Source: Candidatus Woesearchaeota archaeon | GTDB lineage: Archaea > Nanobdellota > Nanobdellia > Woesearchaeales > ARS49 | Direction of reading: 5' to 3' | Assembly: GCA_030750765.1 (NCBI GenBank) | Contig: JASMHM010000001.1 | Location: 334,696-398,695 of the forward strand | Length of the DNA stretch: 64,000 nt | Part shown: in pieces, positions 1-34,795 of the stretch | Layout: each line of letters opens with the position of its first letter | Position numbering within the stretch: the stretch's first letter is position 1 | Translations under genes and position numbers: made by a program | The notes under the pieces: model-generated | Told to the model about the DNA's origin: nothing | Seen by the model: only the letters and a program-made list of their open reading frames with translations | The model's database searches: none

Positions 1-669
1 CCACAAGAGCAAGTACACCACACAATAGAAGACAAACAACAATCCCAGATTGAATTTGGTGGCTAATGCCAAACCCGACACGACACCCAACCAAACCCAC
101 CACTTTTTGGTATCAAATTTCATGGCAAACGCAAACAACACCGCTCCTGCCGTGAAAAAAAAGCTCGTAGGCGCGTCCAAGCTCACAGTCTTGTGAAACT
201 GGACAAAGTTAGGTAATAGTATCAGAATCAGACTTGCTAATATTCCTGTAGACTGGCTGAAAAAGTACGCACAAAACAAGTACGCCAACACCACGGTGAG
301 GCCCGCAAGTAAGACGCTCGAATACCTTCCAGGATTGTACAATTCTCCTGGAAGCCTATACGGTTTCAAGCCTCCAGCAATGGTGACCTTACGCTCGTAC
401 TCACTCATGCTAAAGATGAAAGGAGCAAAAAACAAGGCGTGCAAGTATTTGCCTACCGCAGGGTGTTCCTTGAACATCACCCACCGTTCATAACTCCCAT
501 TCATCTCCGTAACACCCTCATACGTGTTCACGGCCAACCTTAGATAATTGTGCTCGTCAAACATGCCCCCTGCACCGTTCAGATCGTACAGTCGAGAACC
601 GACCATGAACAAAAATAGCAGAACAGCTAGGATAATATGGATTCGCTTCTTCGAAAGGGTGAGCTTCAC
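1..669 (-). CDS. GT-C fold membrane glycosyltransferase (PMT/ArnT-like), N-terminal part; gene runs off the left edge
   Basis: Minus-strand ORF open from position 1. Translation gives TM1 (KKRIHIILAVLLFLF) then a loop-1 acidic motif MFDEHNYL resembling the DE motif of PMT/ArnT GT-C enzymes, followed by further TM helices. Start assigned to GTG at 669 (alternative ATG 616). The ORF track omits it because it is incomplete. Confidence 0.45.
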   Translation of the reverse strand, partial: MKLTLSKKRIHIILAVLLFLFMVGSRLYDLNGAGGMFDEHNYLRLAVNTYEGVTEMNGSYERWVMFKEHPAVGKYLHALFFAPFIFSMSEYERKVTIAGGLKPYRLPGELYNPGRYSSVLLAGLTVVLAYLFCAYFFSQSTGILASLILILLPNFVQFHKTVSLDAPTSFFFTAGAVLFAFAMKFDTKKWWVWLGVVSGLALATKFNLGLLFVFYCVVYLLLW

Positions 670-720
670 GATAGATACCTGTTCCGTGGGCTTTATAAGG
701 ATTTCCTCACTTCCCCCGTC
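670..720. promoter_or_regulatory. divergent intergenic region with palindromic TATA-like box (ctttataagg, ~692-701) serving both flanking genes
   Basis: The TATA-like element lies 20-30 nt from both the GTG at 669 (minus) and the GTG at 721 (plus), the typical archaeal leaderless spacing. Confidence 0.35.
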
Positions 721-1710
721 GTGATTGTCTCACGTACACCGTTAAGGATAAGCTTCTTTGGAGGAGCTACAGACTTCCCAGGATACTTTGAAGAGCATGG
801 CGGCAAAGTGCTAAGCACCGCCATCTCACATTTTGCATACGTAACCGTACGTAAAGAAAAATTCTACGGCAAGACCATCCTGAACTATATGAAGAAAGAA
901 ACCGTAGAAAAAGTTGACGAAATCCAAAACGAAAGGTTGCGAGAATGCATGAAGTTAATAGATATCAACTTTCCTGTCGAACTATCCTTACAAAGTGACG
1001 TTCCCTCTACCGGCACAGGCCTAGGAGCAAGCTCAGCCTTCCTAGTAGGAAGCCTAAATGCTCTATGGTTTGCCAAACATGGCACATTACTCAGCAAGTA
1101 TGACCTTGCCAGCATGGCGTGTGATCTAGAAATAAACAAATTAGGAGAACCCATAGGCTGGCAAGACCAGTTTGCCTGCGCTTTTGGCGGAACAAACACC
1201 ATAGACTTCAACAAAGAAGGAGCAACCGTAGCACCCGTCAAAACAACCACGGAAAATCTAAAAATGCTCGAATCACAATTACTAGCCTTCTACACCAGCC
1301 GAGGAAGGCAGGCAGGAAACGTGCTTACCGAACAGAAAGAGAAAATAGGTGTGAACCTTTCAGCATTAGGCGAAATGAAGGCACAAGTAGCAAAAGGAGA
1401 ACAACATCTTAGAAACGGAGATATTGATTCCTTTGGTAGTTTGCTCCACGAAGGATGGCTGTTGAAAAAATCGTTAGCTTCTGGAATTTCTGACAAAGAC
1501 ATTGATGATCTGTATAACGACGCAAAAACTGCAGGAGCCACGGGCGGCAAGATCGCTGGAGCAGGCGGAGGCGGCTTCCTACTCCTCCACGTGCCTGTAG
1601 CACACCAAAATAGTGTCAGACAAGCCATGAGAGAAAAAAGTCTTAAAGAACTACCCATCAAGTTCGAAACAGAAGGAACAAAAATATATCACGTTGGAGA
1701 AACGTTCTAA
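721..1710 (+). CDS. GHMP-family sugar kinase (heptose-7-phosphate kinase HddA-like)
   Basis: N-terminal RTPLRISFFGGATD, GHMP motif PSTGTGLGASSAF, C-terminal GGKIAGAGGGGF. The track ORF begins at ATG 637 but that overlaps the divergent gene. GTG 721 gives the canonical N-terminus and sits 20-28 nt after the TATA. Confidence 0.75.
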   Translation: MIVSRTPLRISFFGGATDFPGYFEEHGGKVLSTAISHFAYVTVRKEKFYGKTILNYMKKETVEKVDEIQNERLRECMKLIDINFPVELSLQSDVPSTGTGLGASSAFLVGSLNALWFAKHGTLLSKYDLASMACDLEINKLGEPIGWQDQFACAFGGTNTIDFNKEGATVAPVKTTTENLKMLESQLLAFYTSRGRQAGNVLTEQKEKIGVNLSALGEMKAQVAKGEQHLRNGDIDSFGSLLHEGWLLKKSLASGISDKDIDDLYNDAKTAGATGGKIAGAGGGGFLLLHVPVAHQNSVRQAMREKSLKELPIKFETEGTKIYHVGETF

Positions 1711-2729
1711 GCAGGCATAGCGCCAGGAATTTCCTTAGCATCAACAACACTAGGATTCTTGTACAAGAACTTAATCAGTTCATACTGCTGTTGGTTAGCA
1801 AATACTGCAACATTAATCTTATCTGTTTTTTCGCTGCTAGCAATCAAGGTTTCGATATCACTACTCTCATCCCATTGATCTCCCTGTCCACATCTTACAA
1901 CGCAACCTGCATGTTGTGCAATCACAAATCCAGGAGAGTCGTAGGCTCCTTGCCCAAAGAGAATGTGGAAGTCGTGCGTCCCATCGGCAACCTTACAAGC
2001 CATTAGTGATGCACTTCCTGAACCTGGCTTGACATCACACGCGCCGTACGGTCGGGATTTGGATCCCACGGGGAAGGTGACCTCTCTAAAGAGTCCTTTC
2101 AAACGGTTGTTCACCTCAGGCATCCTTTCTCGGTCCGAAGAAGGCATATACGCACAACCATGCATATCTCCAAGGAAAGAAGTAATCGAAGGCGATAAAG
2201 CGAAACGAACTCGCTGCATAGAAGGCGGCGATCCTGCCGAGGTTGGGGAAGGAACAAGGACTGTTCTCTCTACGAAAGGCGCCCGGTCAAATTCATGGAT
2301 AAAGTGATCAAGGGTACCTGGCTGATACACACTAACAAACGGAACAGACGAATCTTCGGAGTGCACCAGAGCGACAACCGAACTCCAGTACCGACCGCCC
2401 AATTCTGCCACTGCCGTGCCATCCCTCGGATCTACAAGCCAGAAAGGACTGCCAGGTTTGTTTTCCAACTCTTCACCAACAAACCCGAAAGAGGGATTGA
2501 TTTGCCACAACTGTTCCCTTAGATCAGTTTCTATCGCAACATCGATGCTCGAACTGTAATTAGCCTCTGTGTCATGCAGGCCTCCAAACTGGCCCCAATA
2601 CTCTTTCACAACACACAGATGTCGTATCAGTGCCTCTTGGTTGATTTGTTGCATGGTTGTCATTAAACTGATCAAAGCACCGGAGGAATATAAAGGCGAT
2701 CCTCTACCTTTATAAGTAGAGATAGACAA
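1707..2729 (-). CDS. inositol monophosphatase/FBPase-family phosphatase
   Basis: IMPase signatures FVGEE and WLVDPRDGT (DPxDGT metal-binding motif), and a C-terminal WD-containing segment. Confidence 0.55.
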   Translation of the reverse strand: MSISTYKGRGSPLYSSGALISLMTTMQQINQEALIRHLCVVKEYWGQFGGLHDTEANYSSSIDVAIETDLREQLWQINPSFGFVGEELENKPGSPFWLVDPRDGTAVAELGGRYWSSVVALVHSEDSSVPFVSVYQPGTLDHFIHEFDRAPFVERTVLVPSPTSAGSPPSMQRVRFALSPSITSFLGDMHGCAYMPSSDRERMPEVNNRLKGLFREVTFPVGSKSRPYGACDVKPGSGSASLMACKVADGTHDFHILFGQGAYDSPGFVIAQHAGCVVRCGQGDQWDESSDIETLIASSEKTDKINVAVFANQQQYELIKFLYKNPSVVDAKEIPGAMPA

Positions 2730-2737
2730 ATAAACAC

Positions 2738-3934
2738 GTGAAAGCAGTCATTCTTTGTGCAGGAGAGGGGAGTAGAATGGGCCTTGTGGGAGAGCAGATT
2801 CCCAAGCCTTTACTCAAGCTTAATGGCAAATCCATGATCCATAGATGGTTTGATTATTTCAAAAAACACAGCATTAACGAGTTCTACATCAACACGTTTC
2901 ATCTCGCAGAAATGGTAGAGGAAGAGATCGGAGACGGCTCAAAATACGGAGTGAAGGTGCACTGGTACCGACAACCAGGAAAGATGGGCACCGCCAGCAT
3001 CCTCAAAGAGTTCAAGTTAGACGAACAGGACGAACCATTTGTTGTTGTGTTTGGGGACAGTCTAACAACACTTGATCTACAACCCATCCTTGACCATCAC
3101 AAAGAGAAAGGAGCAGACGTCACACTTCTAGGAAGAAAACACCACGAGCCATGGAGAAAAGGAGTTATCACAATTGATGGCGACCAAAGAATAACCCACA
3201 TGGTCGAAAAACCGGATCTAAAAGAGTTAGCGCCAAACCAATACTGCGTTTCTAGCATAGCCATAATCAACCCGGATATGATTAAGCATGTTGACAGCGA
3301 TCAAGAATGGTTAGGCATGGAGTTTTACCCTAAGCTTTTGGAAAGAAAATGCCATCTGACCTTCAAAGAACGCCCAAAGAACGATAACGCAGGCGATGTA
3401 AACAACACAGAAAACTTCTACAAACTAGACGCGTACCTAAGAGAAAAAGAAGGCAGCCCAAACGTGGAGGTAGCCATGATTGATAGAGATGGAACGCTCA
3501 ACGTTCGCTCCCCACAAGGAAGCTATGCCTTAGTTGACTTCCCCTTCAAACTCTTCCCCTTCGCCCTAGACAGCTTAAAAAAACTAAAGGAAGCCAAGAT
3601 CAAAAATTTACTGGTAACAAACCAAGCTTGCATTGGCAAGGGTTACCTCACGCGAGAAACCTTAGACAAGACCCACCAAGAAGCCTTTGGAGAATTGTTC
3701 GATGACTACTACGTGTGCGAACACATACACGGAACATGCACGTGCAGAAAACCCTGGCCAGACATGCTCAAAAAAGCCATCAAAGACCACAACATCGACA
3801 TCCAGAAAGCAGTCTTCATCGGCGACACCGAGTACGACGAAGCTGCTGCACTAGCGGTAGGCGTTAGATTCATCAAGGTGGACGACAAGTTTACGTTCGC
3901 GGACGCAGTTAACCAAATTCTTAGTGAAGATTAA
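2738..3934 (+). CDS. bifunctional sugar-1-phosphate nucleotidyltransferase (N-term) / GmhB-like HAD histidinol-phosphatase-family phosphatase (C-term)
   Basis: N-terminus MKAVILCAGEGSRM is a nucleotidyltransferase G-loop. C-terminal half has DRDGTLN and a Zn-binding CxH...CTCRKP motif typical of D,D-heptose-1,7-bisphosphate phosphatase GmhB. GTG start, TATA 22 nt upstream. Confidence 0.7.
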   Translation: MKAVILCAGEGSRMGLVGEQIPKPLLKLNGKSMIHRWFDYFKKHSINEFYINTFHLAEMVEEEIGDGSKYGVKVHWYRQPGKMGTASILKEFKLDEQDEPFVVVFGDSLTTLDLQPILDHHKEKGADVTLLGRKHHEPWRKGVITIDGDQRITHMVEKPDLKELAPNQYCVSSIAIINPDMIKHVDSDQEWLGMEFYPKLLERKCHLTFKERPKNDNAGDVNNTENFYKLDAYLREKEGSPNVEVAMIDRDGTLNVRSPQGSYALVDFPFKLFPFALDSLKKLKEAKIKNLLVTNQACIGKGYLTRETLDKTHQEAFGELFDDYYVCEHIHGTCTCRKPWPDMLKKAIKDHNIDIQKAVFIGDTEYDEAAALAVGVRFIKVDDKFTFADAVNQILSED

Positions 3935-3974
3935 TAAGCCATGCCCTACCTATTAGGAGATACATGATTTTTGT

Positions 3975-5108
3975 GTGAACGAAGCGTATGCAACCTTGCG
4001 TAGTGACAATAGCGTTCACGTGAGAATGGTCTTTCCTGACAACAAAGTAAAAGCAGACGGACTGCGTTTCAAGGCATGCCCTGACGTTGGCGTCCAAGTA
4101 CACGCAGATTTGCTTGCAAAACAAGGCACAGGCAAGGAAGGAAGAATTGCCTTCCCGCACTCACCCTTCAAACCTGCCAGCGCGGGTGGCGTTATTTTCC
4201 TGGACAAGGGAGATACTGCCCTAGGCAGTCTGAGAAACATCAGACCGAGATCTCACACCGTTTATCAATCATGGAATGGCGGCTTTCCTACCAAGGAAGA
4301 AGGCGTCTACAGCGCAGAAGCGTTGGCAATTACGGGCGAAAGAGAGTTCAACGAAGAGATAGTCCTTGTAACCAAAGACGGTGCATTGATTGTAAACAAG
4401 CACGACACTCGCGGATATGCACAACACCGAGCAAAAATGGCAGGTCTCGAATTTGGAGATCGCATTGTACAAGTAGAACCGCAATATGTAACCGTTGGCG
4501 ACACGCTAACTGTGGAAGACCAATCAGGAAGCCCCATCTACAGAACAAACGATTGGAACGTGGAATGGATGCTAGAACAAACAAGCAGCCTCAACTGCGT
4601 AAAGCTGGTCGTATACGATCTTCCTTCAGACGAAGTATTTCCTCTAGATTTAGAGGGTAAGGAAAGTCCTTACGAAAGATTCAACTTACCCGTTGTCCTA
4701 CTCAAACGAGAACAAGTAGACGGGGAGCGTTTTGGCGCAGTCCTTGAGGATTATGTAGCCTGGAACGCAGATCTCTCATCCGGCAAAGCAGAGTTTAGAC
4801 GCTATCAGATGCCTGAACCATGCGAAGGTCCCGATAGAACTCCAACAAAAGGAATGGTGTACGCACCAGAAGATGGATTGTCAAAAGCAATATGTAGCAT
4901 GGGCTGGAAAACGCGGACAGACAGGGGAACGCTAGACCATTGGCTAGAAGTCGAGCTTTGGAAAGAGGGGAAAATGCTCGAACAGCAGACCTGTGTGCTC
5001 ACCCAAAAAGACGTTCCCTTAGACGCACTTCTTTGCCCAGAAGCGAGCGTAGACACCACGCGAATGCAGGGTTGGGTACCTCGATGGCTCGAAGAGAGCC
5101 CCTACTGA
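3975..5108 (+). CDS. hypothetical protein (377 aa), no recognisable motifs
   Basis: Long ORF in coding-dense context with a GTG start. Embedded in the heptose gene cluster. Confidence 0.5.
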   Translation: MNEAYATLRSDNSVHVRMVFPDNKVKADGLRFKACPDVGVQVHADLLAKQGTGKEGRIAFPHSPFKPASAGGVIFLDKGDTALGSLRNIRPRSHTVYQSWNGGFPTKEEGVYSAEALAITGEREFNEEIVLVTKDGALIVNKHDTRGYAQHRAKMAGLEFGDRIVQVEPQYVTVGDTLTVEDQSGSPIYRTNDWNVEWMLEQTSSLNCVKLVVYDLPSDEVFPLDLEGKESPYERFNLPVVLLKREQVDGERFGAVLEDYVAWNADLSSGKAEFRRYQMPEPCEGPDRTPTKGMVYAPEDGLSKAICSMGWKTRTDRGTLDHWLEVELWKEGKMLEQQTCVLTQKDVPLDALLCPEASVDTTRMQGWVPRWLEESPY

Positions 5109-5147
5109 GTCCATAAACTTTAAAAACCAACCTCTTAGAATTTGCTT

Positions 5148-6146
5148 ATGAAATGCGTTGTTACAGGCGGGGCAGGATTCATCGGAAGTGCTATTGCTAA
5201 GCGATTAGAAAAAGACAATCATGACGTTGTCATCGTGGACGACTTCTCCGCAGGGTATGAAACCAACCTCAAAGGATTTTCCGGAGAGATAATCAAAGCA
5301 TCAGTCGTAGAAGCAGACAAGGTAGCTCCTGCAATTAAAGATGCAAACCTTATCTTCCATCTTGGAGCCATGAACGCCTTACCAGACTGCAGCAACGACA
5401 TGGTCGCAACCATGGAAGTAAATGTTAAGGGAACTGCTTCTTTGCTAGACATGGCAAGAAGAACCGCAGCAAAAGACTGCAGATTCGTCTTCACCTCTTC
5501 ATCCGCAGTGTACGAAGGAAGCGACAAGCTACCCAACACAGAAAGCGATCAACCAAACCCACACTTAGCATACGCAATATCCAAACTCCAAGGAGAATTC
5601 TTATGCAGAAGCTTCCACAAAAGTTTCGGACTACCCTACACTATAATCCGACCCTTCAACGTCTACGGCGAAGGCCAAGATTTTAGGCGCGAACAACCCC
5701 CAGTCATGTGCGCGCTAGCCATACCCTTACTGCAAGGCAAACAAGCAACCATTTATGGAGATGGCACCCAAGCAAGAGACTTTATCCATGTCGAGGACAT
5801 GGCAGAACTATTTGTCGTAGCAGCAACCCACCCAAAAGGAGCAGGACAAGCCTTCAACGGCGGCGTGGGAAAAAGTGTTAACATCAACGACATCTACAAA
5901 ATGATCTGCTCAGAACTCGGCACAGACAAAGAACCCATCTACGCACCAGCCCAAGGCTTGTTTGACAAGTATCCTGCATTGAAAGAAGGCAACTTTGTCT
6001 TCCGAGATGAAGCAGTAACGCACGAAAGCCTCAAAACAACCCAAGCAGACACCACAAAAACAAAAGACCTACTCGGCTGGGAACCCAAGATCAGCATGGA
6101 AGAAGGAGTTAAACGGAGTGTAGAGTACGTCAAACAGAACCTATGA
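5148..6146 (+). CDS. NAD-dependent epimerase/dehydratase (SDR extended family)
   Basis: MKCVVTGGAGFIGS Rossmann motif and a YxxxK-type segment. ATG 5148 preferred over the track's TTG 5142; TATA ~22 nt upstream. Confidence 0.8.
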   Translation: MKCVVTGGAGFIGSAIAKRLEKDNHDVVIVDDFSAGYETNLKGFSGEIIKASVVEADKVAPAIKDANLIFHLGAMNALPDCSNDMVATMEVNVKGTASLLDMARRTAAKDCRFVFTSSSAVYEGSDKLPNTESDQPNPHLAYAISKLQGEFLCRSFHKSFGLPYTIIRPFNVYGEGQDFRREQPPVMCALAIPLLQGKQATIYGDGTQARDFIHVEDMAELFVVAATHPKGAGQAFNGGVGKSVNINDIYKMICSELGTDKEPIYAPAQGLFDKYPALKEGNFVFRDEAVTHESLKTTQADTTKTKDLLGWEPKISMEEGVKRSVEYVKQNL

Positions 6147-6820
6147 TAACACTCGTCATCCCTGCATACAACGAACAAAATAGACTCCCAGACACGGTCA
6201 AGGCGTTTGCCAACTATTTTCCAAAAATAGACATCCTCATCGTGCCTAATGGTTGCACCGACAACACAGAAACCGTGGCACAAGAGCTAGCAACCAAGTA
6301 CAACAACGTAAGAACATGGGCAACCCCTACAGGAGGAAAAGGATTCGCAGTAAGAGAAGGATTCAAACGAGCCAAGCACGATCTGGTAGGCTTTGTGGAT
6401 GCAGACCTAGCAATAACACCCGAAGAGTTCGCCAAACTCCTCCCCTTTGCCAAAGAGAACGACGTCGTCATAAGCTCAAGATGGCTCAAAGACAGCAACG
6501 TAACCCAAAAAGAACCCGCCCAAGTACGCTTTGCCGGAAGGATTTTCAACCTCATGGTGCGAACCTGGTTCGGACTAAAAATATCAGACACCCAATGCGG
6601 AGCAAAAATATTCAAAACCGACTTAATGCGAAAAATCCTACCCAAATGCATTGTTAACAAAATGGCATTTGACGTAGAATTCTTGTACCACGCCAAAAAC
6701 TTCGGCGCAACCATAAAAGAAGTCCCCATCACCTGGAAGCACAACCCAGAAGAGTCCAAAACCGGCGTGTTTAAAACCGGAATAAAAATGATAGGACAAC
6801 TAGCAAGTATACGAAAATGA
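6143..6820 (+). CDS. glycosyltransferase family 2 (dolichyl-phosphate sugar synthase-like)
   Basis: VIPAYNE N-terminus, DxD (VDADL) and QCGAK motifs. Overlaps the upstream gene by 4 nt. Confidence 0.8.
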   Translation: MITLVIPAYNEQNRLPDTVKAFANYFPKIDILIVPNGCTDNTETVAQELATKYNNVRTWATPTGGKGFAVREGFKRAKHDLVGFVDADLAITPEEFAKLLPFAKENDVVISSRWLKDSNVTQKEPAQVRFAGRIFNLMVRTWFGLKISDTQCGAKIFKTDLMRKILPKCIVNKMAFDVEFLYHAKNFGATIKEVPITWKHNPEESKTGVFKTGIKMIGQLASIRK

Positions 6821-7809
6821 AAGCAGCAATAATTGGAGCAGGAAAGATGGGAGAAAAAAAGGCAGAAGCCTGCAAAGCCTGCGGCATAGACCTTGTCTAT
6901 GTAGACTCCATAAACGAAGACATGGTAGCCCAAATCTGCAAAGAACACAATGCCACGTCAAAACCATGGAGAGAATTCATCAACGAAGACATCGACCTAA
7001 TCTTTGTCTGCACCAGCCACGACGCACTCAAAGAAGCAACCGTGGCAGCATTAAATGCAGGCAAGCACGTATGCGTGGAAAAGCCAGCAGGAAGAAACTC
7101 CGCAGAAGTACAAGAAATCATCACCGCACACAATAACGCACTAGAAAAAAAATATGTAGGACTCAAAGTGAGTCTTAACCACCGCTTCCATCCCGCCATC
7201 TGGAAAGCAAAAGAACTAGCAGACAAAGGAGAGTTAGGCGAGCTCATGTTCATGACTGGAGAATACGGTCATGGAGGAAGAGACGGCATGGAAACCGAAT
7301 GGAGATGCGTCAAAAGTAAAGGCGGCGGCGGAGAACTCCTCGACCAAGGCTCACACATTATCGATCTTTACCAATGGTTCATAGGCCACCCAGACAGCGT
7401 CAACGGGTACGCACCCACGTACGCCTACAGAAACGAAAACGAACCTGTAGAGGACAATTGCTTCTTCAGAATGAGAACCGGAAAAAAATGCGGCCACTTC
7501 CATGTCAGCTGGACCATGTGGAAGAATGATTTCCGCCTAAAAATAGTCGGAGACAAGGGACTAGCCGTCATCAACGGACTCGGCAGGCACTACGGCAAAG
7601 AAACACTCACCATCTACAAACGAGGCGCCATGGGAAAGCCCTCAGAATCCTACGAATACCCGCCAGGGGATGACCCAGAACGGGACGAAAGCTTCATCGA
7701 CGAGCTCAAATACTTCCTCGAATGCATCGAAGAAGAAAAACAACCAGAAGGTAACATCAAAGAAGCTTTAGACAGCATGAAAATCGTGGAAAGCATATAT
7801 TCACAATGA
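6817..7809 (+). CDS. Gfo/Idh/MocA-family NAD(P)-dependent oxidoreductase
   Basis: MKAAIIGAGKMG Rossmann N-terminus and an EKP motif (VCVEKPA). Confidence 0.8.
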   Translation: MKAAIIGAGKMGEKKAEACKACGIDLVYVDSINEDMVAQICKEHNATSKPWREFINEDIDLIFVCTSHDALKEATVAALNAGKHVCVEKPAGRNSAEVQEIITAHNNALEKKYVGLKVSLNHRFHPAIWKAKELADKGELGELMFMTGEYGHGGRDGMETEWRCVKSKGGGGELLDQGSHIIDLYQWFIGHPDSVNGYAPTYAYRNENEPVEDNCFFRMRTGKKCGHFHVSWTMWKNDFRLKIVGDKGLAVINGLGRHYGKETLTIYKRGAMGKPSESYEYPPGDDPERDESFIDELKYFLECIEEEKQPEGNIKEALDSMKIVESIYSQ

Positions 7810-9011
7810 AAATAGGAATCCTAGGGGCATGGCATTTGGGAGCAGTGGTAGCCGCCGGACTCTGCGAGCACCACGACGTAAGCGTCCACGACCCTACGGT
7901 GGAGAGCCTCAAAGAAGGCGTTCCCGCAGTAGACGAGCCAGGAGTTGAAGAAAAATTAAAAGCAAACCTAGACAAAAGCCTGCACATCACCAGTGCAGAA
8001 GAGGCCATCAAAGACAAAGACTTTGTCATCATCGCCCATGATTCGCCTGTCAACGAAGACGACAGCGTCGACATAAGCCCCATCCTAGAAAGCGCTGCCC
8101 AGATCAAACAATACAGCAAAGAAACCATCATCGTTTGCATGAGCCAAGTACCAATAGGCACCTGCAAAAAAATAGAACAAGATCTTGGCATGCCAGTAGC
8201 GTACGTTCCTGAAAACCTACGCCTAGGAGAAGCGATGGACTGTTTCCTTAACCCGGACGTTGTTGTTATCGGAGCAGACAAAGACACAGCCAAACGAGTC
8301 AACGAACTCTACGCACCCGTCAAAGGAGAACGAGCATTCATGAGCGTGGAAAGCGCAGAGATGTGGAAGCATAGCATGAACTGCTATCTTGCGAGCATGA
8401 TAACGTTAGCCAACAACCTTGCAGACGTAGCACAAGCATACGGCGCAAACATCACAGACGTGATTGGCGGACTAAAAAAAGACCGAAGAGTCTCAGAAAA
8501 AGCCCCACTCGGACCAGGATTAGGATTCGGAGGAGGCACGCTCGGCAGAGACGTTAGCGTGCTGATAGATTTAGCAAAAGAAAAAAACATCAACGCTCCC
8601 ATGTTTAGCACCATCCTTGATTATAATCACACTCGACCTAACTTTGTGCTAGAAAAACTCAAACAAAAGGGAGCTAGCAAGATAGCAATACTAGGCCTAG
8701 CTTACAAACCAGGCACCAACACTCTCAGAAGAAGCATCGGCGTATGGCTTGCCAAAAAACTAAACGCCGTAGCCTTTGATCCAGCCATACCTACCGCAGA
8801 AGGCATAACCACCGCGTCAAGCGCAGAAGAAGCTTGCCAAGATGCTGACGCAATACTCATCGTGACTGCATGGCCAGAATTCAAGAACATAAAGTGGGAT
8901 GCTTTAAAGGTGAAGGAGAAATACATCTTGGATTGTAGAAACATGATGGACAAACAAGACCAAGAAAAAATAAGACAAGCAGGATTTGTCTACGAAGGAG
9001 TAGGCTTATGA
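7806..9011 (+). CDS. nucleotide-sugar dehydrogenase family protein (UDP-glucose/GDP-mannose DH-like) lacking the canonical catalytic Cys
   Basis: MKIGILGAWHLGAVVAAG N-terminus. The region aligning to the GGxCxxKD catalytic motif reads GFGGGTLGRD (Cys->Thr, Lys->Arg). Confidence 0.7.
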   Translation: MKIGILGAWHLGAVVAAGLCEHHDVSVHDPTVESLKEGVPAVDEPGVEEKLKANLDKSLHITSAEEAIKDKDFVIIAHDSPVNEDDSVDISPILESAAQIKQYSKETIIVCMSQVPIGTCKKIEQDLGMPVAYVPENLRLGEAMDCFLNPDVVVIGADKDTAKRVNELYAPVKGERAFMSVESAEMWKHSMNCYLASMITLANNLADVAQAYGANITDVIGGLKKDRRVSEKAPLGPGLGFGGGTLGRDVSVLIDLAKEKNINAPMFSTILDYNHTRPNFVLEKLKQKGASKIAILGLAYKPGTNTLRRSIGVWLAKKLNAVAFDPAIPTAEGITTASSAEEACQDADAILIVTAWPEFKNIKWDALKVKEKYILDCRNMMDKQDQEKIRQAGFVYEGVGL

Positions 9012-9799
9012 GCTTGCAAGGAAAAACCGCGGTAGTGACCGGAGCCGGCAGAGGCATCGGTAAAGCGGTAGCCAAAGCACTGGCAGCAGCAGGAGCCCAA
9101 GTCATGCTCGCGGCAAGAACCGAAAGTGAACTCAAAGAAACACAATCAGAAATTCCCGGAAGCAAATACGTCGTAACAGACGTTTCCCAACCTGAACAGG
9201 TAAAAAAACTCATCCAAGAAACCAAAGAAATATTCAAAAAGATAGACATACTCGTGACCTGCGCAGGCGTATATGGTCCTAAAGGTTTGTTCCACGAACA
9301 AAACTTACAAGAATGGAAGCAAGCACAAGACATCAATCTTTTAGGAACCGCAAACTGCATCCATGAAGCCCTGCCTGAAGTAGAAAGTATTGTTTGTGTA
9401 GCCGGAGCAGGCGTACCAAATCCCCTTCCAAGAGTGTCCAGCTACTCAGTATCGAAAGCAGCCATCGTCCAACTCGTCACCACCCTGGCTGCAGAATACC
9501 CAAAAGTGAAGATCAACGCCATCGCACCCGGACCGGTAGCCACAAAACTCATGCAAGAGGTGCTAGATGCAGGGCCAGAAGTTGTAGGAAAGGAATTCCA
9601 CGAAAAAAACAGCCTGTGGATGGAAGGAAAGGATCGAGTTGTCCCTCCAGAAGTGGCCGCAGACTTTATAGTAAAACTTTGTCAAGAAAGACCTTGCACA
9701 GGCAAGTATCTGAGCGCAGTATGGGACAAAGAATTGCAGGTCCCAGACGAAATGTTCACCCTGAAGCGAATTGACGGCAAAAATTTCGACAAAAAGTAA
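9008..9799 (+). CDS. short-chain dehydrogenase/reductase (SDR)
   Basis: TGAGRGIGKAVA cofactor motif and a YSVSKAA catalytic YxxxK motif. Confidence 0.8.
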   Translation: MSLQGKTAVVTGAGRGIGKAVAKALAAAGAQVMLAARTESELKETQSEIPGSKYVVTDVSQPEQVKKLIQETKEIFKKIDILVTCAGVYGPKGLFHEQNLQEWKQAQDINLLGTANCIHEALPEVESIVCVAGAGVPNPLPRVSSYSVSKAAIVQLVTTLAAEYPKVKINAIAPGPVATKLMQEVLDAGPEVVGKEFHEKNSLWMEGKDRVVPPEVAADFIVKLCQERPCTGKYLSAVWDKELQVPDEMFTLKRIDGKNFDKK

Positions 9800-9850
9800 T
9801 ATACACTGAGCCATACACAAGCTTTTAAGCCATCATCTGAAAGGCGCAAT

Positions 9851-10900
9851 ATGATTAGGACGAGAACACCGTTCCGCATCACGCTCGGCGGAGGAGGCAC
9901 AGACCTGGCATCCTACTACGAACAGCACGGAGGCATGTGCCTTGCCGCAGCCGTTTCTTTGAATCTAGATATTCTCTTAAAACCCGCATGGGAGCAAGAT
10001 GACATCCTCGCACACTACTCAGAAAGCGAAAGAGTGCAGAGCCTGGAAGAGCTCAAAAATGAAAGATTAAGAGAATGCCTACGATATGCAGGCATCACCA
10101 AAAGAATAGAAGTTGCAAGCTTTGCCAGCGTAGGACCCAAGACAGGATTAGGAAGCAGCTCCAGTTTTGTTGTGGGATTACTCAAATCACTCTACGCCAT
10201 CCAAAATATTCACATTGACAAAGAAGAATTAGCACGAGCAGCATGCGAAGTAGAAGTAAACATACTCAAAAAACCCATGGGCAAACAAGATCAATACGCA
10301 GCAGCCTTTGGCGGCATGCAAATGTTCACCTTCGACCCTAATGGTGACGTGCGAGTAGAGCACATCAGCATGCCACGAACAAAAAGACAAGAATTGGACG
10401 AAAGACTACTACTTTTCTGGACAGGCGTGAGCAGAGACAGCGAAAGCGTGCTCAAAGACCAAGTGGTTCGCTCCGAAGAGATGGACCAAGACATGATGGA
10501 AAACTTACACCGAGTAAAAGAACTAGGCTTTGACAGCAAAGCAGCACTCCACAAAGGAGATCTAGAAAGGTTCGGCCAACTAATGCACACCCACTGGGAA
10601 AACAAGATCAAAAGAAGCCCAAACATGACCACAGAGAGCATCAGCAAATGGTACAACACCGGCATGGCCAACGGCGCAGTGGGCGGCAAGCTCGTGGGTG
10701 CCGGCGGTGGCGGATTCCTAATGTTCCTCGCAGATGACTCAGAAAAATTACGCTTAGCAATGAAGCAAGAAGGATTACAAGAAATCAGTTTCAATTTTGA
10801 CTCCGAAGGTTCAAGGGTGGTAGAAGACGACCGAAACCACAAGGTTGAAGTAGTAGGAATACAAGACGGAGTTAAAATGAAGGAGTTACAATGGCCATAG
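9851..10900 (+). CDS. GHMP-family sugar kinase (second HddA-like copy)
   Basis: MIRTRTPFRITLGGGGTD, GPKTGLGSSSSF and GGKLVGAGGGGF motifs. Confidence 0.8.
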   Translation: MIRTRTPFRITLGGGGTDLASYYEQHGGMCLAAAVSLNLDILLKPAWEQDDILAHYSESERVQSLEELKNERLRECLRYAGITKRIEVASFASVGPKTGLGSSSSFVVGLLKSLYAIQNIHIDKEELARAACEVEVNILKKPMGKQDQYAAAFGGMQMFTFDPNGDVRVEHISMPRTKRQELDERLLLFWTGVSRDSESVLKDQVVRSEEMDQDMMENLHRVKELGFDSKAALHKGDLERFGQLMHTHWENKIKRSPNMTTESISKWYNTGMANGAVGGKLVGAGGGGFLMFLADDSEKLRLAMKQEGLQEISFNFDSEGSRVVEDDRNHKVEVVGIQDGVKMKELQWP

Positions 10901-11604
10901 AAGAAATCAACACAAACATATACCCAACAGAGGAAATCAGCGTGGAGCCACTAGCTCCAATAGAAGAAGCAGAAATAGACACGGACGTCTTTGTACGCAC
11001 CTTCCTAAGCGAAGGACTACAACATCTCGGCAGTTTAATGATGAGCGAAGCCAACAACCGAGGTCTAAGCCTAGCACTAAAAGCACTCGACAGGTGCAGA
11101 CGCGACAAAAAAAGAATATTTCTCATAGGAAACGGCGGCAGCGCAAGCACCGCACAACACCTAACCAGCGACCTAAACAAATGGGCCACAGGAGACGGAC
11201 AAGCACCCGTGAGAGCCATCTGCCTGAATGACAACATGTCCAGCATGACTGCGCTAACCAACGACGACGGCTGGGAAAACGTGTACGAAGCACAACTAAA
11301 AAATCTAGAAGCCGAAGCAGGCGACGTTATCATCGCAATATCCGTCCACGGCGGAAAGGGATCAGACGCTGCCGGCGTGTGGAGTCAGAATCTAACCAAA
11401 GCGATCGCCAATGTCAAAGAACATGGAGGTTATGCCGTAGGCATCACCGGCTTTGATGGTGGCGCAATGGCAGAATTATGCGACGCCCACATCAACGTAC
11501 CCGCAGAAAGCACACCGCATGTAGAAGGTCTGCACCTTGTAGTCACACACTGCATCGTTGACGGTCTTAGAGTGATGGCGATGGGCAACTACCAGGAAAA
11601 GTGA
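10891..11604 (+). CDS. SIS-domain sugar-phosphate isomerase (phosphoheptose isomerase GmhA-like) with acidic N-terminal extension
   Basis: SIS motif IGNGGSASTAQH, about 190 aa of SIS core plus a ~45 aa acidic leader. Confidence 0.65.
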   Translation: MAIEEINTNIYPTEEISVEPLAPIEEAEIDTDVFVRTFLSEGLQHLGSLMMSEANNRGLSLALKALDRCRRDKKRIFLIGNGGSASTAQHLTSDLNKWATGDGQAPVRAICLNDNMSSMTALTNDDGWENVYEAQLKNLEAEAGDVIIAISVHGGKGSDAAGVWSQNLTKAIANVKEHGGYAVGITGFDGGAMAELCDAHINVPAESTPHVEGLHLVVTHCIVDGLRVMAMGNYQEK

Positions 11605-12035
11605 AAATTTCCAGCCCAGAATTTGGTAACATGCAGGATATTCCTGCAAAATTTACCTGTCAAGGGGAAGACATCAACCCCCCTTTGAAAATCGAGGACG
11701 TTCCTGAGCATACTGAAAGCTTGGTTCTCATCATGGACGATCCTGACTCTCCCACAGGAACGTGGGATCATTGGGTGGTGTGGAACATTGCACCTTCAAC
11801 AAAAGAAATTCCAGAACATTCAAAGCCAGGCGTGGAGGGTATGAACACTTGGCCCAAGCTAGGCTATGGCGGACCGTGTCCTGCATCAGGAAAGCACCGC
11901 TACGTCTTCACCCTGTACGCTCTAGACACCACCTTAGATCTTCCGGCTACGTCCACAAAGAAAGACGTTGAAAGCGAGATGGAACACCACATTCTAGAAA
12001 AAACGGAACTTATTGGTTTGTTTGAGAAGAGCTAG
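11601..12035 (+). CDS. PEBP-family protein (YbhB/YbcL-like)
   Basis: DDPDSPTGTWDHW and GKHRYVFTLYALD motifs of phosphatidylethanolamine-binding proteins. GTG start. Confidence 0.7.
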   Translation: MKISSPEFGNMQDIPAKFTCQGEDINPPLKIEDVPEHTESLVLIMDDPDSPTGTWDHWVVWNIAPSTKEIPEHSKPGVEGMNTWPKLGYGGPCPASGKHRYVFTLYALDTTLDLPATSTKKDVESEMEHHILEKTELIGLFEKS

Positions 12036-34678: not shown

Positions 34679-34795
34679 TTAGACGGCCATAGGGAGTGGG
34701 TCCCACCCGGTCTCATTCGAACCCGGAAGTTAAACCACTTTCCGTACCGGTCTGTACTGCGCTTTAGGTGTGGGAAAACCGGTAAGCTGTCACCC
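34679..34795 (+). rRNA. rrf: 5S ribosomal RNA (archaeal type)
   Basis: GGCCATAGGGAG...CACCCGGTCTCATTCGAACCCGGAAGTTAAAC matches the universally conserved 5S loop C/helix III region (cf. Sulfolobus CACCCGGACTCATTTCGAACCCGGAAGTTAAG). Helix I pairing occurs between the ends. Followed by TTTTTT. Confidence 0.8.

What the first reader, a model, noticed from the sequence alone, without database searches (positions are those of the whole stretch)
2738..3934. Single-polypeptide fusion of sugar-1-P nucleotidyltransferase and GmhB-type phosphatase
The N-terminal GlmU/RmlA-type G-loop and the C-terminal DRDGTLN plus Zn-finger CxH..CTCRKP of histidinol-phosphatase-family heptose bisphosphate phosphatases lie in one ORF. 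Fusing the dephosphorylation and nucleotidylation steps would channel heptose-1-P. I do not recall this arrangement as a standard characterised enzyme.
Basis: partly seen in the sequence, partly recalled or inferred. Interest (0 to 1): 0.5.

Follow-up and report, generated by a model that had tools for sequence, protein, structure and literature searches.

The report
Fused heptose phosphatase–nucleotidyltransferase enzyme gene
One archaeal gene joins two consecutive enzymes of activated seven-carbon-sugar (NDP-heptose) synthesis into a single protein; the fusion is real, but the same arrangement occurs in hundreds of sequenced bacteria, so it is fairly ordinary although I found no biochemical study of it.

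Summary
Window 2738-3934 (+) is one uninterrupted 398-aa ORF. Residues 1-238 are an RmlA/ManC-type sugar-1-phosphate nucleotidyltransferase. Residues 243-398 are a HAD-IIIA phosphatase with all four HAD motifs and the GmhB/HisB-N zinc loop (C327-x-H329...C334-x-C336-RKP). The identical protein occurs in several Woesearchaeota MAGs, and 65-69% relatives keep the single frame, so it is not a frameshift artefact.

The heptose interpretation rests mainly on context. The gene heads a co-directional cluster that contains an HddA-like GHMP kinase and a GmhA-like isomerase. In 80 bacterial genomes with the same fusion, 65 have the kinase and 58 the isomerase within 8 kb, often directly adjacent. E. 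coli GmhB is the closest solved structure to the C-domain.

The arrangement is not rare. At least 575 species genomes and more than 200 protein clusters carry it. Reversed-order and triple fusions also exist, which points to repeated independent fusion. Databases name only the phosphatase half, and no paper describing the fusion turned up in the searched literature.

Nucleotide specificity, anomer preference and substrate channelling remain untested. Verdict: a divergent archaeal member of a widespread, uncharacterised fused HddC-GmhB family. Interest is low to moderate.

The parts
2738..3934 (+). Whole fusion ORF, 398 aa, GTG start (stop codon included)
   Evidence: The identical protein P0001 is NCBI MDP6293924.1 and others, 'HAD-IIIA family hydrolase [Ca. 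Woesearchaeota archaeon]'. AF2 model: pLDDT 92.9, pTM 0.90.
2738..3451 (+). N-terminal sugar-1-phosphate nucleotidyltransferase domain (residues 1-238), RmlA/ManC/HddC fold. Key residues: G-loop G9-x-G11-x-R13, K23, D107, E157-K158-P159, D220
3464..3931 (+). C-terminal HAD-IIIA phosphatase domain (residues 243-398), GmhB/HisB-N type
3482..3502 (+). HAD motif I, D249-R-D251-G-T-L-N (Asp nucleophile and Asp+2 acid/base)
   Evidence: D249, D251 and G252 are invariant in 55 fused homologues.
3716..3754 (+). Zinc-binding loop and motif III: C327-E-H329-IHGT-C334-T-C336-R337-K338-P339. This is the short-loop version.
   Evidence: Aligned to CPH...CxCRKP of solved GmhB and HisB-N chains. C327, C334, C336, R337, K338 and P339 are invariant, and H329 is conserved in at least 90%.
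2709..2715 (+). TTTATAA, a TATA-box-like element 23 nt upstream of the GTG start; no Shine-Dalgarno-like sequence lies between. A leaderless archaeal transcript is possible (inference only).
   Evidence: Read directly from the sequence. Not tested statistically.
9851..10900 (+). HddA-like GHMP sugar kinase, same strand and same cluster. Presumed heptose-7-P 1-kinase that supplies the bisphosphate substrate.
   Evidence: Pfam GHMP_kinases_N/C. The best NCBIfam hit is the HddA model NF049969: 164.2 bits, E 5e-48, below the cut-off of 600.
10891..11604 (+). GmhA-like SIS-domain sedoheptulose-7-P isomerase; overlaps the kinase stop
   Evidence: Pfam SIS_2/SIS. NCBIfam phosphoheptose isomerase models at 100.3 and 86.9 bits, below cut-offs.
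637..1710 (+). Second HddA-like GHMP kinase, a paralogue about 33% identical to 9851-10900
   Evidence: A GHMP kinase occupies the same position in relatives L086.
1707..2729 (-). Inositol-monophosphatase-family gene, divergently transcribed from the fusion gene. The true start is probably about 25 codons inside the listed ORF.
   Evidence: Pfam Inositol_P, partial. The same divergent neighbour is found in L086 and L087.
3975..5108 (+). Orphan 377-aa protein immediately downstream, conserved in synteny. Possibly a degenerate Nudix fold.
5142..9799 (+). Five overlapping or abutting sugar-modification genes: SDR epimerase/dehydratase 5142-6146, GT2 (AglJ/Dpm1-like) 6143-6820, GFO/IDH/MocA oxidoreductase 6817-7809, NDP-sugar dehydrogenase 7806-9011, and SDR 9008-9799
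   Evidence: The same gene order is found in relative L089.

Best explanation
The gene encodes a bifunctional enzyme for the last two steps of the 'alpha' (HddA/GmhB/HddC-type) NDP-heptose pathway. GmhA (10891-11604) isomerises sedoheptulose-7-P to D-glycero-D-manno-heptose-7-P. An HddA-like GHMP kinase (9851-10900, possibly also 637-1710) phosphorylates C1 to give the alpha-1,7-bisphosphate. The C-terminal HAD-IIIA domain of the fusion then removes the 7-phosphate. In that domain D249 is the nucleophile, D251 the acid/base, T294 and K338 bind phosphate, D363 and D367 bind Mg2+, and the Zn loop C327/H329/C334/C336 acts as the substrate-specificity cap. [quoted passage not shown] GTP is expected by analogy with HddC, but the nucleotide is undetermined. 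The downstream epimerase/dehydratase, oxidoreductases, NDP-sugar dehydrogenase and a dolichol-phosphate-type GT2 then use or modify the product for a cell-surface glycan. What is shown: domain identity, intact catalytic residues, fold, a single ORF, and conserved linkage to the kinase and isomerase genes. What is inferred: the substrate (heptose), the anomer, the nucleotide, and any kinetic advantage or channelling from the fusion.
Against: The protein fails every curated equivalog cut-off for GmhB (76.2 against 178; 63.9 against 149.6; 56.1 against 250) and for HddC (47.6 against 300). The N-domain scores higher against generic, GlmU-N, MurU and ManC models (86-91 bits) than against HddC. The kinase and isomerase neighbours are also below their equivalog cut-offs. 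The cluster has a second kinase and an IMPase-like phosphatase whose roles are unexplained. About 15-20% of bacterial loci show no kinase or isomerase within the flank. No biochemical data exist for any fused member in the literature searched.
Confidence: 0.75

Rival explanations
1. Same bifunctional chemistry (sugar-bisphosphate phosphatase plus sugar-1-P nucleotidyltransferase), but on a different sugar. Examples would be a hexose-1,6-bisphosphate or a modified heptose or octose made by the second GHMP kinase (637-1710). The product would then be an NDP-hexose or another NDP-sugar rather than NDP-glycero-manno-heptose.
For: The N-domain scores best against ManC, UGPase, MurU and GlmU-N type models rather than HddC. 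GmhB and HddC equivalog cut-offs are not met. Two paralogous kinases are present. The cluster carries an NDP-sugar dehydrogenase and oxidoreductases typical of hexose pathways.
Against: Linkage of this fusion family with GmhA-like isomerase genes is conserved and often immediately adjacent (58/80 loci), and a GmhA-like gene lies in the same window cluster. GmhA has no role in hexose activation. GmhB is the closest solved structure to the phosphatase domain.
Confidence: 0.12
2. Only one half is catalytically relevant. The other domain would be a regulatory or scaffolding remnant, or the HAD domain would be a general housekeeping or histidinol-phosphate phosphatase unrelated to the NTase reaction.
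Against: All catalytic residues of both domains are intact in the window protein and invariant in 55 homologues. Recurrent independent fusions of the same two domains in both orders are hard to explain without coupled function. No histidine-biosynthesis genes are nearby.
Confidence: 0.05
3. The single ORF is an assembly or sequencing artefact (frameshift, chimeric contig) that joins two separate genes.
For: A 53%-identical relative (P0004, 248 aa) encodes the NTase half alone with its own stop codon.
Against: The identical 398-aa protein was recovered from several independent assemblies and sources. P0002 and P0003 (65-69% identity) keep the junction in frame with a conserved junction sequence. 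Hundreds of bacterial genomes, including cultured isolates, carry the same architecture. The AF2 model packs the two domains confidently (pTM 0.90).
Confidence: 0.01

Closest known systems
GmhB, D-glycero-D-manno-heptose-1,7-bisphosphate 7-phosphatase (HAD-IIIA; e.g. E. coli GmhB, PDB 2gmw/3l8e; 4pnh; Bordetella 3l8h)
   Different: Here it is a C-terminal domain of a 398-aa protein rather than a free 180-190-aa enzyme. It is below all curated GmhB HMM cut-offs. The zinc loop is short (4 residues between His and the first Cys), like the 4pnh, 3l8h and HisB-N forms, whereas most bacterial fused proteins have the long E. coli-type loop. Anomer preference is unknown.
[quoted passage not shown] Yersinia pseudotuberculosis HddC, PDB 6jq8/5xhw; C. 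jejuni Cj1423)
   Different: Identity is only 22%. The HddC equivalog model scores 47.6 bits against a cut-off of 300, and ManC, UGPase, MurU and GlmU-N models score higher. Nucleotide specificity cannot be read from the sequence. The domain is fused to the phosphatase.
Bacterial NTP_transferase-HAD-IIIA fusion proteins of 400-445 aa (e.g. Holdemanella biformis DSM 3989, Alicyclobacillus mengziensis, Sphingobium olei, Acetatifactor, Treponema, Schleiferiaceae). They are annotated 'HAD-IIIA family hydrolase' or 'heptose 1,7-bisphosphate 7-phosphatase' and are uncharacterised.
   Same: The domain order, the catalytic residues and the neighbourhood with a GHMP kinase and a SIS isomerase are the same.
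   Different: Identity is only 25-32%. The window's clade lacks the bacterial 'HPNSHPYDS' and 'YVKDMGTPER' signatures and has the short zinc loop. Its N-half is closer to stand-alone NTases (P0148, 141 bits) than to any bacterial fused N-half (at most 122 bits), so the archaeal fusion may have arisen separately.
HldE (bifunctional heptose-7-P kinase / heptose-1-P adenylyltransferase) and the HldE-type 'HENase' fusions of the beta-pathway (Tang et al. 2024, summarised in PMC11461863)
   Same: It is another case where non-adjacent or consecutive steps of NDP-heptose synthesis are fused in one polypeptide. The pathway logic is the same (isomerase, kinase, phosphatase, NTase), and homologues are reported in archaea.
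   Different: The folds are unrelated (ribokinase plus cytidylyltransferase-like, with the (F/L)xxGxSTT motif). The fusion partners differ (kinase plus NTase, not phosphatase plus NTase). It acts on the beta-anomer and makes ADP/CDP/UDP-heptose. The commentary lists NTase alone, kinase-NTase and isomerase/kinase-NTase, but no phosphatase-NTase fusion.

Membership tests
Pfam PF00483 NTP_transferase (sugar-1-P nucleotidyltransferases, RmlA fold) | Score above the gathering threshold; G-loop GxGxR, catalytic Lys, Mg-binding Asp residues, EKP motif | tested here: met
   [not shown]
HAD-IIIA subfamily (TIGR01662) | Score above the curated cut-off; four HAD motifs; no inserted cap domain | tested here: met
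   68.1 bits against 44.6. Motifs I-IV are present.
Histidinol-phosphatase-like domain (TIGR01656; shared by GmhB and HisB-N) | Score above the curated cut-off | tested here: not met
   79.6 bits against a cut-off of 84.15, a narrow miss. Bacterial fused relatives pass easily at 115-133 bits.
GmhB (heptose-1,7-bisphosphate 7-phosphatase) | Zinc-binding loop CxH...CxC immediately preceding the RKP motif-III lysine | tested here: met
   C327, H329, C334 and C336-R-K-P align with the solved GmhB chains and are conserved in the fused family.
GmhB (heptose-1,7-bisphosphate 7-phosphatase) | Curated equivalog or subfamily HMM cut-offs (NF006506, TIGR00213, NF050049) | tested here: not met
   76.2 against 178; 63.9 against 149.6; 56.1 against 250.
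GmhB (heptose-1,7-bisphosphate 7-phosphatase) | Genomic association with gmhA and a heptose-7-P kinase | tested here: met
   GmhA-like and HddA-like genes lie in the same cluster. The association is conserved in 55-65 of 80 related loci.
GmhB (heptose-1,7-bisphosphate 7-phosphatase) | Selective hydrolysis of the 7-phosphate of D-glycero-D-manno-heptose-1,7-bisphosphate; anomer preference | not testable with these tools
   Requires an enzyme assay.
HddC (heptose-1-P guanylyltransferase) | Curated equivalog HMM cut-off (NF049965) | tested here: not met
   47.6 bits against 300. Other NTase models score higher.
HddC (heptose-1-P guanylyltransferase) | Single-domain RmlA-fold NTase of about 220-240 aa encoded with hddA, gmhA and gmhB | tested here: met
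   Fold match to 6jq8 over 218/225 residues. Context. The nearest outgroup NTase, P0148, lies in an unfused kinase/HAD/SIS cassette.
HddC (heptose-1-P guanylyltransferase) | GTP specificity and alpha-heptose-1-P specificity | not testable with these tools
   No reliable sequence determinants were applied. Needs an assay with ATP, CTP, GTP, UTP and dTTP.
HldE/HldC-type heptose nucleotidyltransferases (beta pathway) | Cytidylyltransferase-like fold with the (F/L)xxGxSTT motif; ribokinase-type kinase partner | tested here: not met
   The N-domain is RmlA-fold. The kinases in the window are GHMP-type. The motif is as described in PMC11461863.

The most novel reading that the evidence does not exclude
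The Woesearchaeota clade may represent an independent, archaeal fusion event. Its N-half is closer to stand-alone NTases of unfused cassettes than to bacterial fused proteins. A 53% relative still has the NTase alone. It could make an alpha-linked NDP-heptose, possibly not GDP-linked, that feeds a lineage-specific modification pathway. That pathway includes an orphan, possibly Nudix-fold, protein and an IMPase-like phosphatase. This would be the first HddA/HddC-type heptose glycan pathway described in DPANN archaea, with true intramolecular channelling of heptose-1-P between the tightly packed domains.
Probability: 0.15. Interest if true: 0.45.

Novelty: new member of a known kind. Interest (0 to 1): 0.25.

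Why it matters
The practical value is mostly in annotation. Automatic pipelines name this protein and hundreds of relatives after only the phosphatase half ('HAD-IIIA family hydrolase', 'heptose bisphosphate phosphatase'). The nucleotidyltransferase step of the pathway then appears to be missing from these genomes. Recognising the fusion closes the NDP-heptose pathway in this Woesearchaeota genome and in many gut Clostridia, Bacteroidota and spirochaetes. The recurrent fusions (both domain orders, plus triple fusions with GmhA, an SDR or a uridine-kinase-like domain) are a clean 'Rosetta stone' confirmation that these steps work together. They also offer compact enzymes for chemo-enzymatic NDP-heptose synthesis. 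NDP-heptoses are of current interest as innate-immune agonists (PMC11461863), so knowing which nucleotide these abundant gut-bacterial fusions use would have some relevance. For archaeal biology, it suggests a heptose-containing surface glycan in a DPANN lineage. None of this overturns existing understanding.

Tried and rejected
(1) Frameshift or artefact was rejected. The identical protein is found in independent assemblies, and the junction is conserved in 65-69% relatives.

(2) An unrelated HAD subfamily for the C-half was rejected. The zinc loop, the HAD-IIIA model and the GmhB structure as best match all agree.

(4) Looking for a curated family spanning both domains found none in NCBIfam, even for bacterial members.

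(5) Eight literature searches and three look-ups of the 2010 GmhB papers found no description of the fusion. The 2010 Biochemistry papers and the 2002 Valvano/Messner/Kosma nomenclature review are not held. A brief mention there cannot be excluded.

(6) The archaeal distribution could not be established. The single genome-contig scan used peptide patterns from the bacterial consensus, which the window's clade does not match, so it returned only bacteria. No second scan was allowed.

(7) The afdb50 fold library was unavailable.

(8) An attempt to infer nucleotide specificity from downstream enzymes was inconclusive. The SDR scores similarly against dTDP-glucose dehydratase, ADP-heptose epimerase, LegB and GalE models.

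(10) Paralogues of either half were sought elsewhere in the window; none were found.

Full report
**Observation**

The window contains a single uninterrupted ORF at 2738-3934 (+) of 398 codons, starting with GTG (sequence read). Its first residues, MKAVILCAGEGSRMG, match the conserved N-terminus of all homologues. The next in-frame Met would remove the nucleotide-binding G-loop, so the GTG start is right.

- Pfam places NTP_transferase on residues 2-185 (E 1.9e-28). It places HAD-type models (Hydrolase, HAD_2, Hydrolase_like) on residues 245-382.
- NCBIfam gives many sugar-1-P nucleotidyltransferase models for the N-half. For the C-half it gives the HAD-IIIA domain model TIGR01662 (68.1 bits against a cut-off of 44.6), the histidinol-phosphatase-like domain (79.6 against 84.15) and three GmhB models (56-76 bits, all below cut-off).
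DRDGTLN is D249-N255. C327-E-H329-IHGT-C334-T-C336-RKP is the zinc loop joined to the motif-III lysine.
- Motifs II (T294-N-Q) and IV (G362-D363-x3-D367) are present. So are the NTase residues G9, G11, R13, K23, D107, E157-K158-P159 and D220.

**Not an artefact**

The identical protein is in NCBI under four accessions as 'HAD-IIIA family hydrolase [Candidatus Woesearchaeota archaeon]'. It also occurs in JGI, ENA and Logan assemblies on contigs up to 655 kb. Relatives at 69% and 65% identity (P0002, P0003) keep one frame through a conserved junction.

An AlphaFold2 model built on 55 fused homologues has mean pLDDT 92.9 and pTM 0.90. The NTase core runs to about residue 238 and the HAD domain starts at about 243, so there is essentially no linker and the inter-domain packing is confidently predicted.

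**Fold-level identity**

- No PDB chain covers both domains. Foldseek TMq is at most 0.56.
- Sequence alignments to solved GmhB chains show the zinc ligands and catalytic residues in register.

**Context in the window**

The gene is the first of a co-directional run from 2738 to 12035 in which most neighbours overlap by 4-10 nt. The run is, in order:

- the fusion gene
- an orphan 377-aa protein
- an SDR epimerase/dehydratase
- a GT2 of the AglJ/dolichol-phosphate type
- a GFO/IDH/MocA oxidoreductase
- an NDP-sugar dehydrogenase (passes TIGR03026)
- an SDR
- a GHMP kinase whose best NCBIfam hit is HddA (164 bits)
- a SIS protein whose best hits are phosphoheptose isomerase models
- a PEBP protein

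Upstream on the opposite strand is an inositol-monophosphatase-family gene. Beyond it lies a second HddA-like kinase, 33% identical to the first. No other NTase or HAD-IIIA gene is present in the 64 kb.

All four activities of the GmhA, HddA, GmhB, HddC route are therefore present in one cluster, with the last two on one polypeptide. That route is described with separate enzymes for C. jejuni in PMC10680097. A TTTATAA element lies 23 nt upstream of the GTG, with no Shine-Dalgarno-like sequence. This is compatible with a leaderless archaeal transcript but was not tested.

**How common is the fusion?**

It is very common.

- A word-indexed search returned 657 proteins at E up to 1e-5. Nearly all of the best 120 have both Pfam domains and lengths of 400-445 aa.
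- An exhaustive HMMER scan of 1.84 billion cluster representatives gave 71 hits at E up to 1e-30 and 6349 at up to 1e-10. Most of the top 150 align in one stretch over residues 1 to about 380.
The best 80 all cover both domains.
- Those 80 come from Clostridia, Lachnospiraceae, Oscillospiraceae, Erysipelotrichaceae, Bacteroidota, Spirochaetota, Sphingobium, Alicyclobacillus, Phycisphaerales and Nitrospirota. They include cultured strains such as Holdemanella biformis DSM 3989, Acetatifactor aquisgranensis DSM 110981, Alicyclobacillus mengziensis S30H14 and Sphingobium olei DSM 18999.

I classified all 271 retrieved proteins with the two halves as separate queries:

| Architecture | Count |
|---|---|
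| NTase-HAD | 203 |
| NTase-HAD plus a C-terminal extension | 34 |
| N-terminal extension | 4 |
| Reversed order, HAD-NTase (e.g. P0165) | 8 |
| NTase only | 22 |

The C-terminal extension is uridine-kinase-like in P0035. The N-terminal extensions include P0149 (GmhA-NTase-HAD) and P0174 (SDR-NTase-HAD). Both domain orders and several triple fusions imply repeated, independent fusion of these pathway steps.

**Context of the relatives**

I searched the 80 GTDB loci with the window's own kinase and isomerase proteins by tblastn.

- 65 loci have an HddA-like kinase, 58 a GmhA-like gene and 55 both within the 8-kb flanks.
- The kinase lies within 300 bp of the fusion gene in 35 loci and the isomerase in 37.
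- Among the 58 loci with at least 3 kb on both sides, 50 have the kinase, 46 the isomerase and 45 both.

Loci with called genes show GHMP kinase-fusion-SIS with overlapping stops (L001, L002) and fusion-GHMP-SIS (L004). This conserved three-gene cassette is the strongest argument that the family handles heptose phosphates, because GmhA has no role in hexose activation.

The bacterial members' C-domains do pass the curated GmhB cut-offs (P0014: 178.4 against 178, and 152.2 against 149.6). That is why PGAP sometimes names them heptose bisphosphate phosphatase. No NCBIfam model spans both domains, so the NTase half goes unnamed.

**Position of the window's protein within the family**

It is divergent: 25-32% identical to bacterial or CPR fused proteins. 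It lacks their 'HPNSHPYDS' and 'YVKDMGTPER' signatures. It has the short zinc loop seen in 4pnh, 3l8h and HisB-N rather than the long E. coli-type loop of most bacterial fusions.

Outside its own small clade, the N-half scores best against stand-alone NTases (P0148 141 bits, P0162 133 bits) rather than any fused protein (at most 122 bits). The best C-half matches are in other fused proteins whose N-halves match poorly.

P0148 lies in an unfused cassette NTase-GHMP kinase-HAD(188 aa)-SDR with a SIS gene nearby (L090). That HAD is 30% identical to the window's C-half and also has a short zinc loop. A 53%-identical relative (P0004) encodes the NTase alone with its own stop.

These data fit an independent or recent fusion in this archaeal lineage, but no tree was built. 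Close relatives keep the local synteny:

- kinase ... IMPase-like(-)/fusion(+) in L086 and L087
- fusion-orphan in L088
- orphan-SDR-GT2-GFO-dehydrogenase-SDR in L089

.

**Mechanism proposed**

[quoted passage not shown] D251 is the acid/base, Mg2+ sits on D363 and D367, and K338 and T294 hold the phosphate. The zinc loop acts as the small cap that shapes the substrate pocket.

The NTase domain then attacks the alpha-phosphate of an NTP with the anomeric phosphate of heptose-1-P. The G-loop, K23 and K158 are involved, and Mg2+ sits on D107 and D220. The products are NDP-heptose and PPi.

The alpha-anomer is inferred from the GHMP-type (HddA-like) kinase and the RmlA-fold NTase. GTP is inferred only by analogy with HddC. 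The fusion would guarantee 1:1 stoichiometry and could favour hand-over of heptose-1-P, but channelling is untested. I put this explanation at 0.75.

**Rivals**

- Another sugar bisphosphate as substrate: 0.12. The generic NTase scores and the second kinase favour it. The GmhA linkage opposes it.
- One inactive or unrelated half: 0.05. All catalytic residues are intact, which opposes it.
- Artefact: 0.01.

**Comparison with what is known**

The two domains are ordinary members of the RmlA-fold NTase and HAD-IIIA/GmhB-like families. The protein fails the curated equivalog cut-offs for both GmhB and HddC. I therefore file it as 'works like GmhB plus HddC' on motif, fold and context evidence, not as a certified equivalog.

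The known bifunctional heptose enzyme HldE and the HldE-type fusions surveyed across kingdoms use unrelated folds and fuse kinase and/or isomerase to the NTase, not the phosphatase (PMC11461863).

Eight full-text searches found no paper describing a GmhB-HddC fusion. Key subscription papers could not be read, so a passing mention elsewhere cannot be excluded.

**Verdict**

The arrangement is not unusual. It is a widespread, automatically (and incompletely) annotated, biochemically uncharacterised architecture, of which this is a divergent archaeal member.

- Novelty: new member of a known kind.
- Interest: 0.25. The value lies mainly in annotation, in the pathway completeness of a DPANN archaeon, and in a tidy example of recurrent fusion of pathway neighbours.

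Noticed in passing
[not shown]
   Followed up: partly
window 1707-2729 (-) and 637-1710 (+); L086, L087: An inositol-monophosphatase-family gene is divergently paired with the fusion gene, with a second HddA-like GHMP kinase beyond it. This layout is conserved in 65%-identity relatives. The roles are unexplained. Speculatively, the phosphatase could be a sedoheptulose/fructose-bisphosphatase-type enzyme supplying sedoheptulose-7-P, or the pair could form a second sugar-activation branch.
   Followed up: partly
P0035, P0011, P0017 and about 30 other proteins of 600-650 aa (locus L004: 5249-7123): These are triple fusions, NTase-HAD-(uridine kinase/PRK-like P-loop domain). In L004 they still sit next to a GHMP kinase and a SIS isomerase, with a small NUDIX gene just upstream. 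The role of the third domain is unknown; nucleotide supply is one possibility.
   Followed up: partly
P0149 (665 aa), P0174 (736 aa), P0165 (429 aa): Other architectures exist: GmhA-NTase-HAD, SDR epimerase-NTase-HAD, and reversed-order HAD-NTase proteins. They indicate repeated independent fusions of heptose-pathway steps.
   Followed up: partly
P0124 (401 aa): This fused homologue has a HAD domain that lost the zinc-ligand cysteines and histidine (...IDACTASDNTDRRRKPNPGML). It is a zinc-free variant of the phosphatase domain.
   Followed up: no
L085: 1040-1786 (P0004): A 53%-identical relative encodes only the NTase half (248 aa) with its own stop codon 25 nt before the contig end, preceded by a methyltransferase gene. 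This is either a split version of the gene or the state before fusion.
   Followed up: partly
L003: 1-1005 and 4916-6805; L090: 4-1035 and 5493-7031: B12-binding radical-SAM genes sit inside heptose cassettes, both fused and unfused. This suggests C-methylation or another radical modification of the NDP-heptose in some bacteria.
   Followed up: no
window 34679-34795 (+): A lone 5S rRNA gene (Rfam RF00001, 73.6 bits) is present. ARAGORN finds no tRNA gene in the whole 64 kb, and no other rRNA was found.
   Followed up: no
window 2709-2715: A TTTATAA element lies 23 nt upstream of the GTG start, in a divergent intergenic region of about 75 nt shared with the IMPase-like gene. No Shine-Dalgarno-like sequence is present. 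This fits a leaderless archaeal mRNA that starts with GUG.
   Followed up: no
P0001 / P0270 (database records of the window protein): Public annotation covers only half of the protein ('HAD-IIIA family hydrolase'; JGI: 'heptose 1,7-bisphosphate phosphatase'). One source calls the gene from M14 (385 aa), which removes the NTase G-loop.
   Followed up: yes
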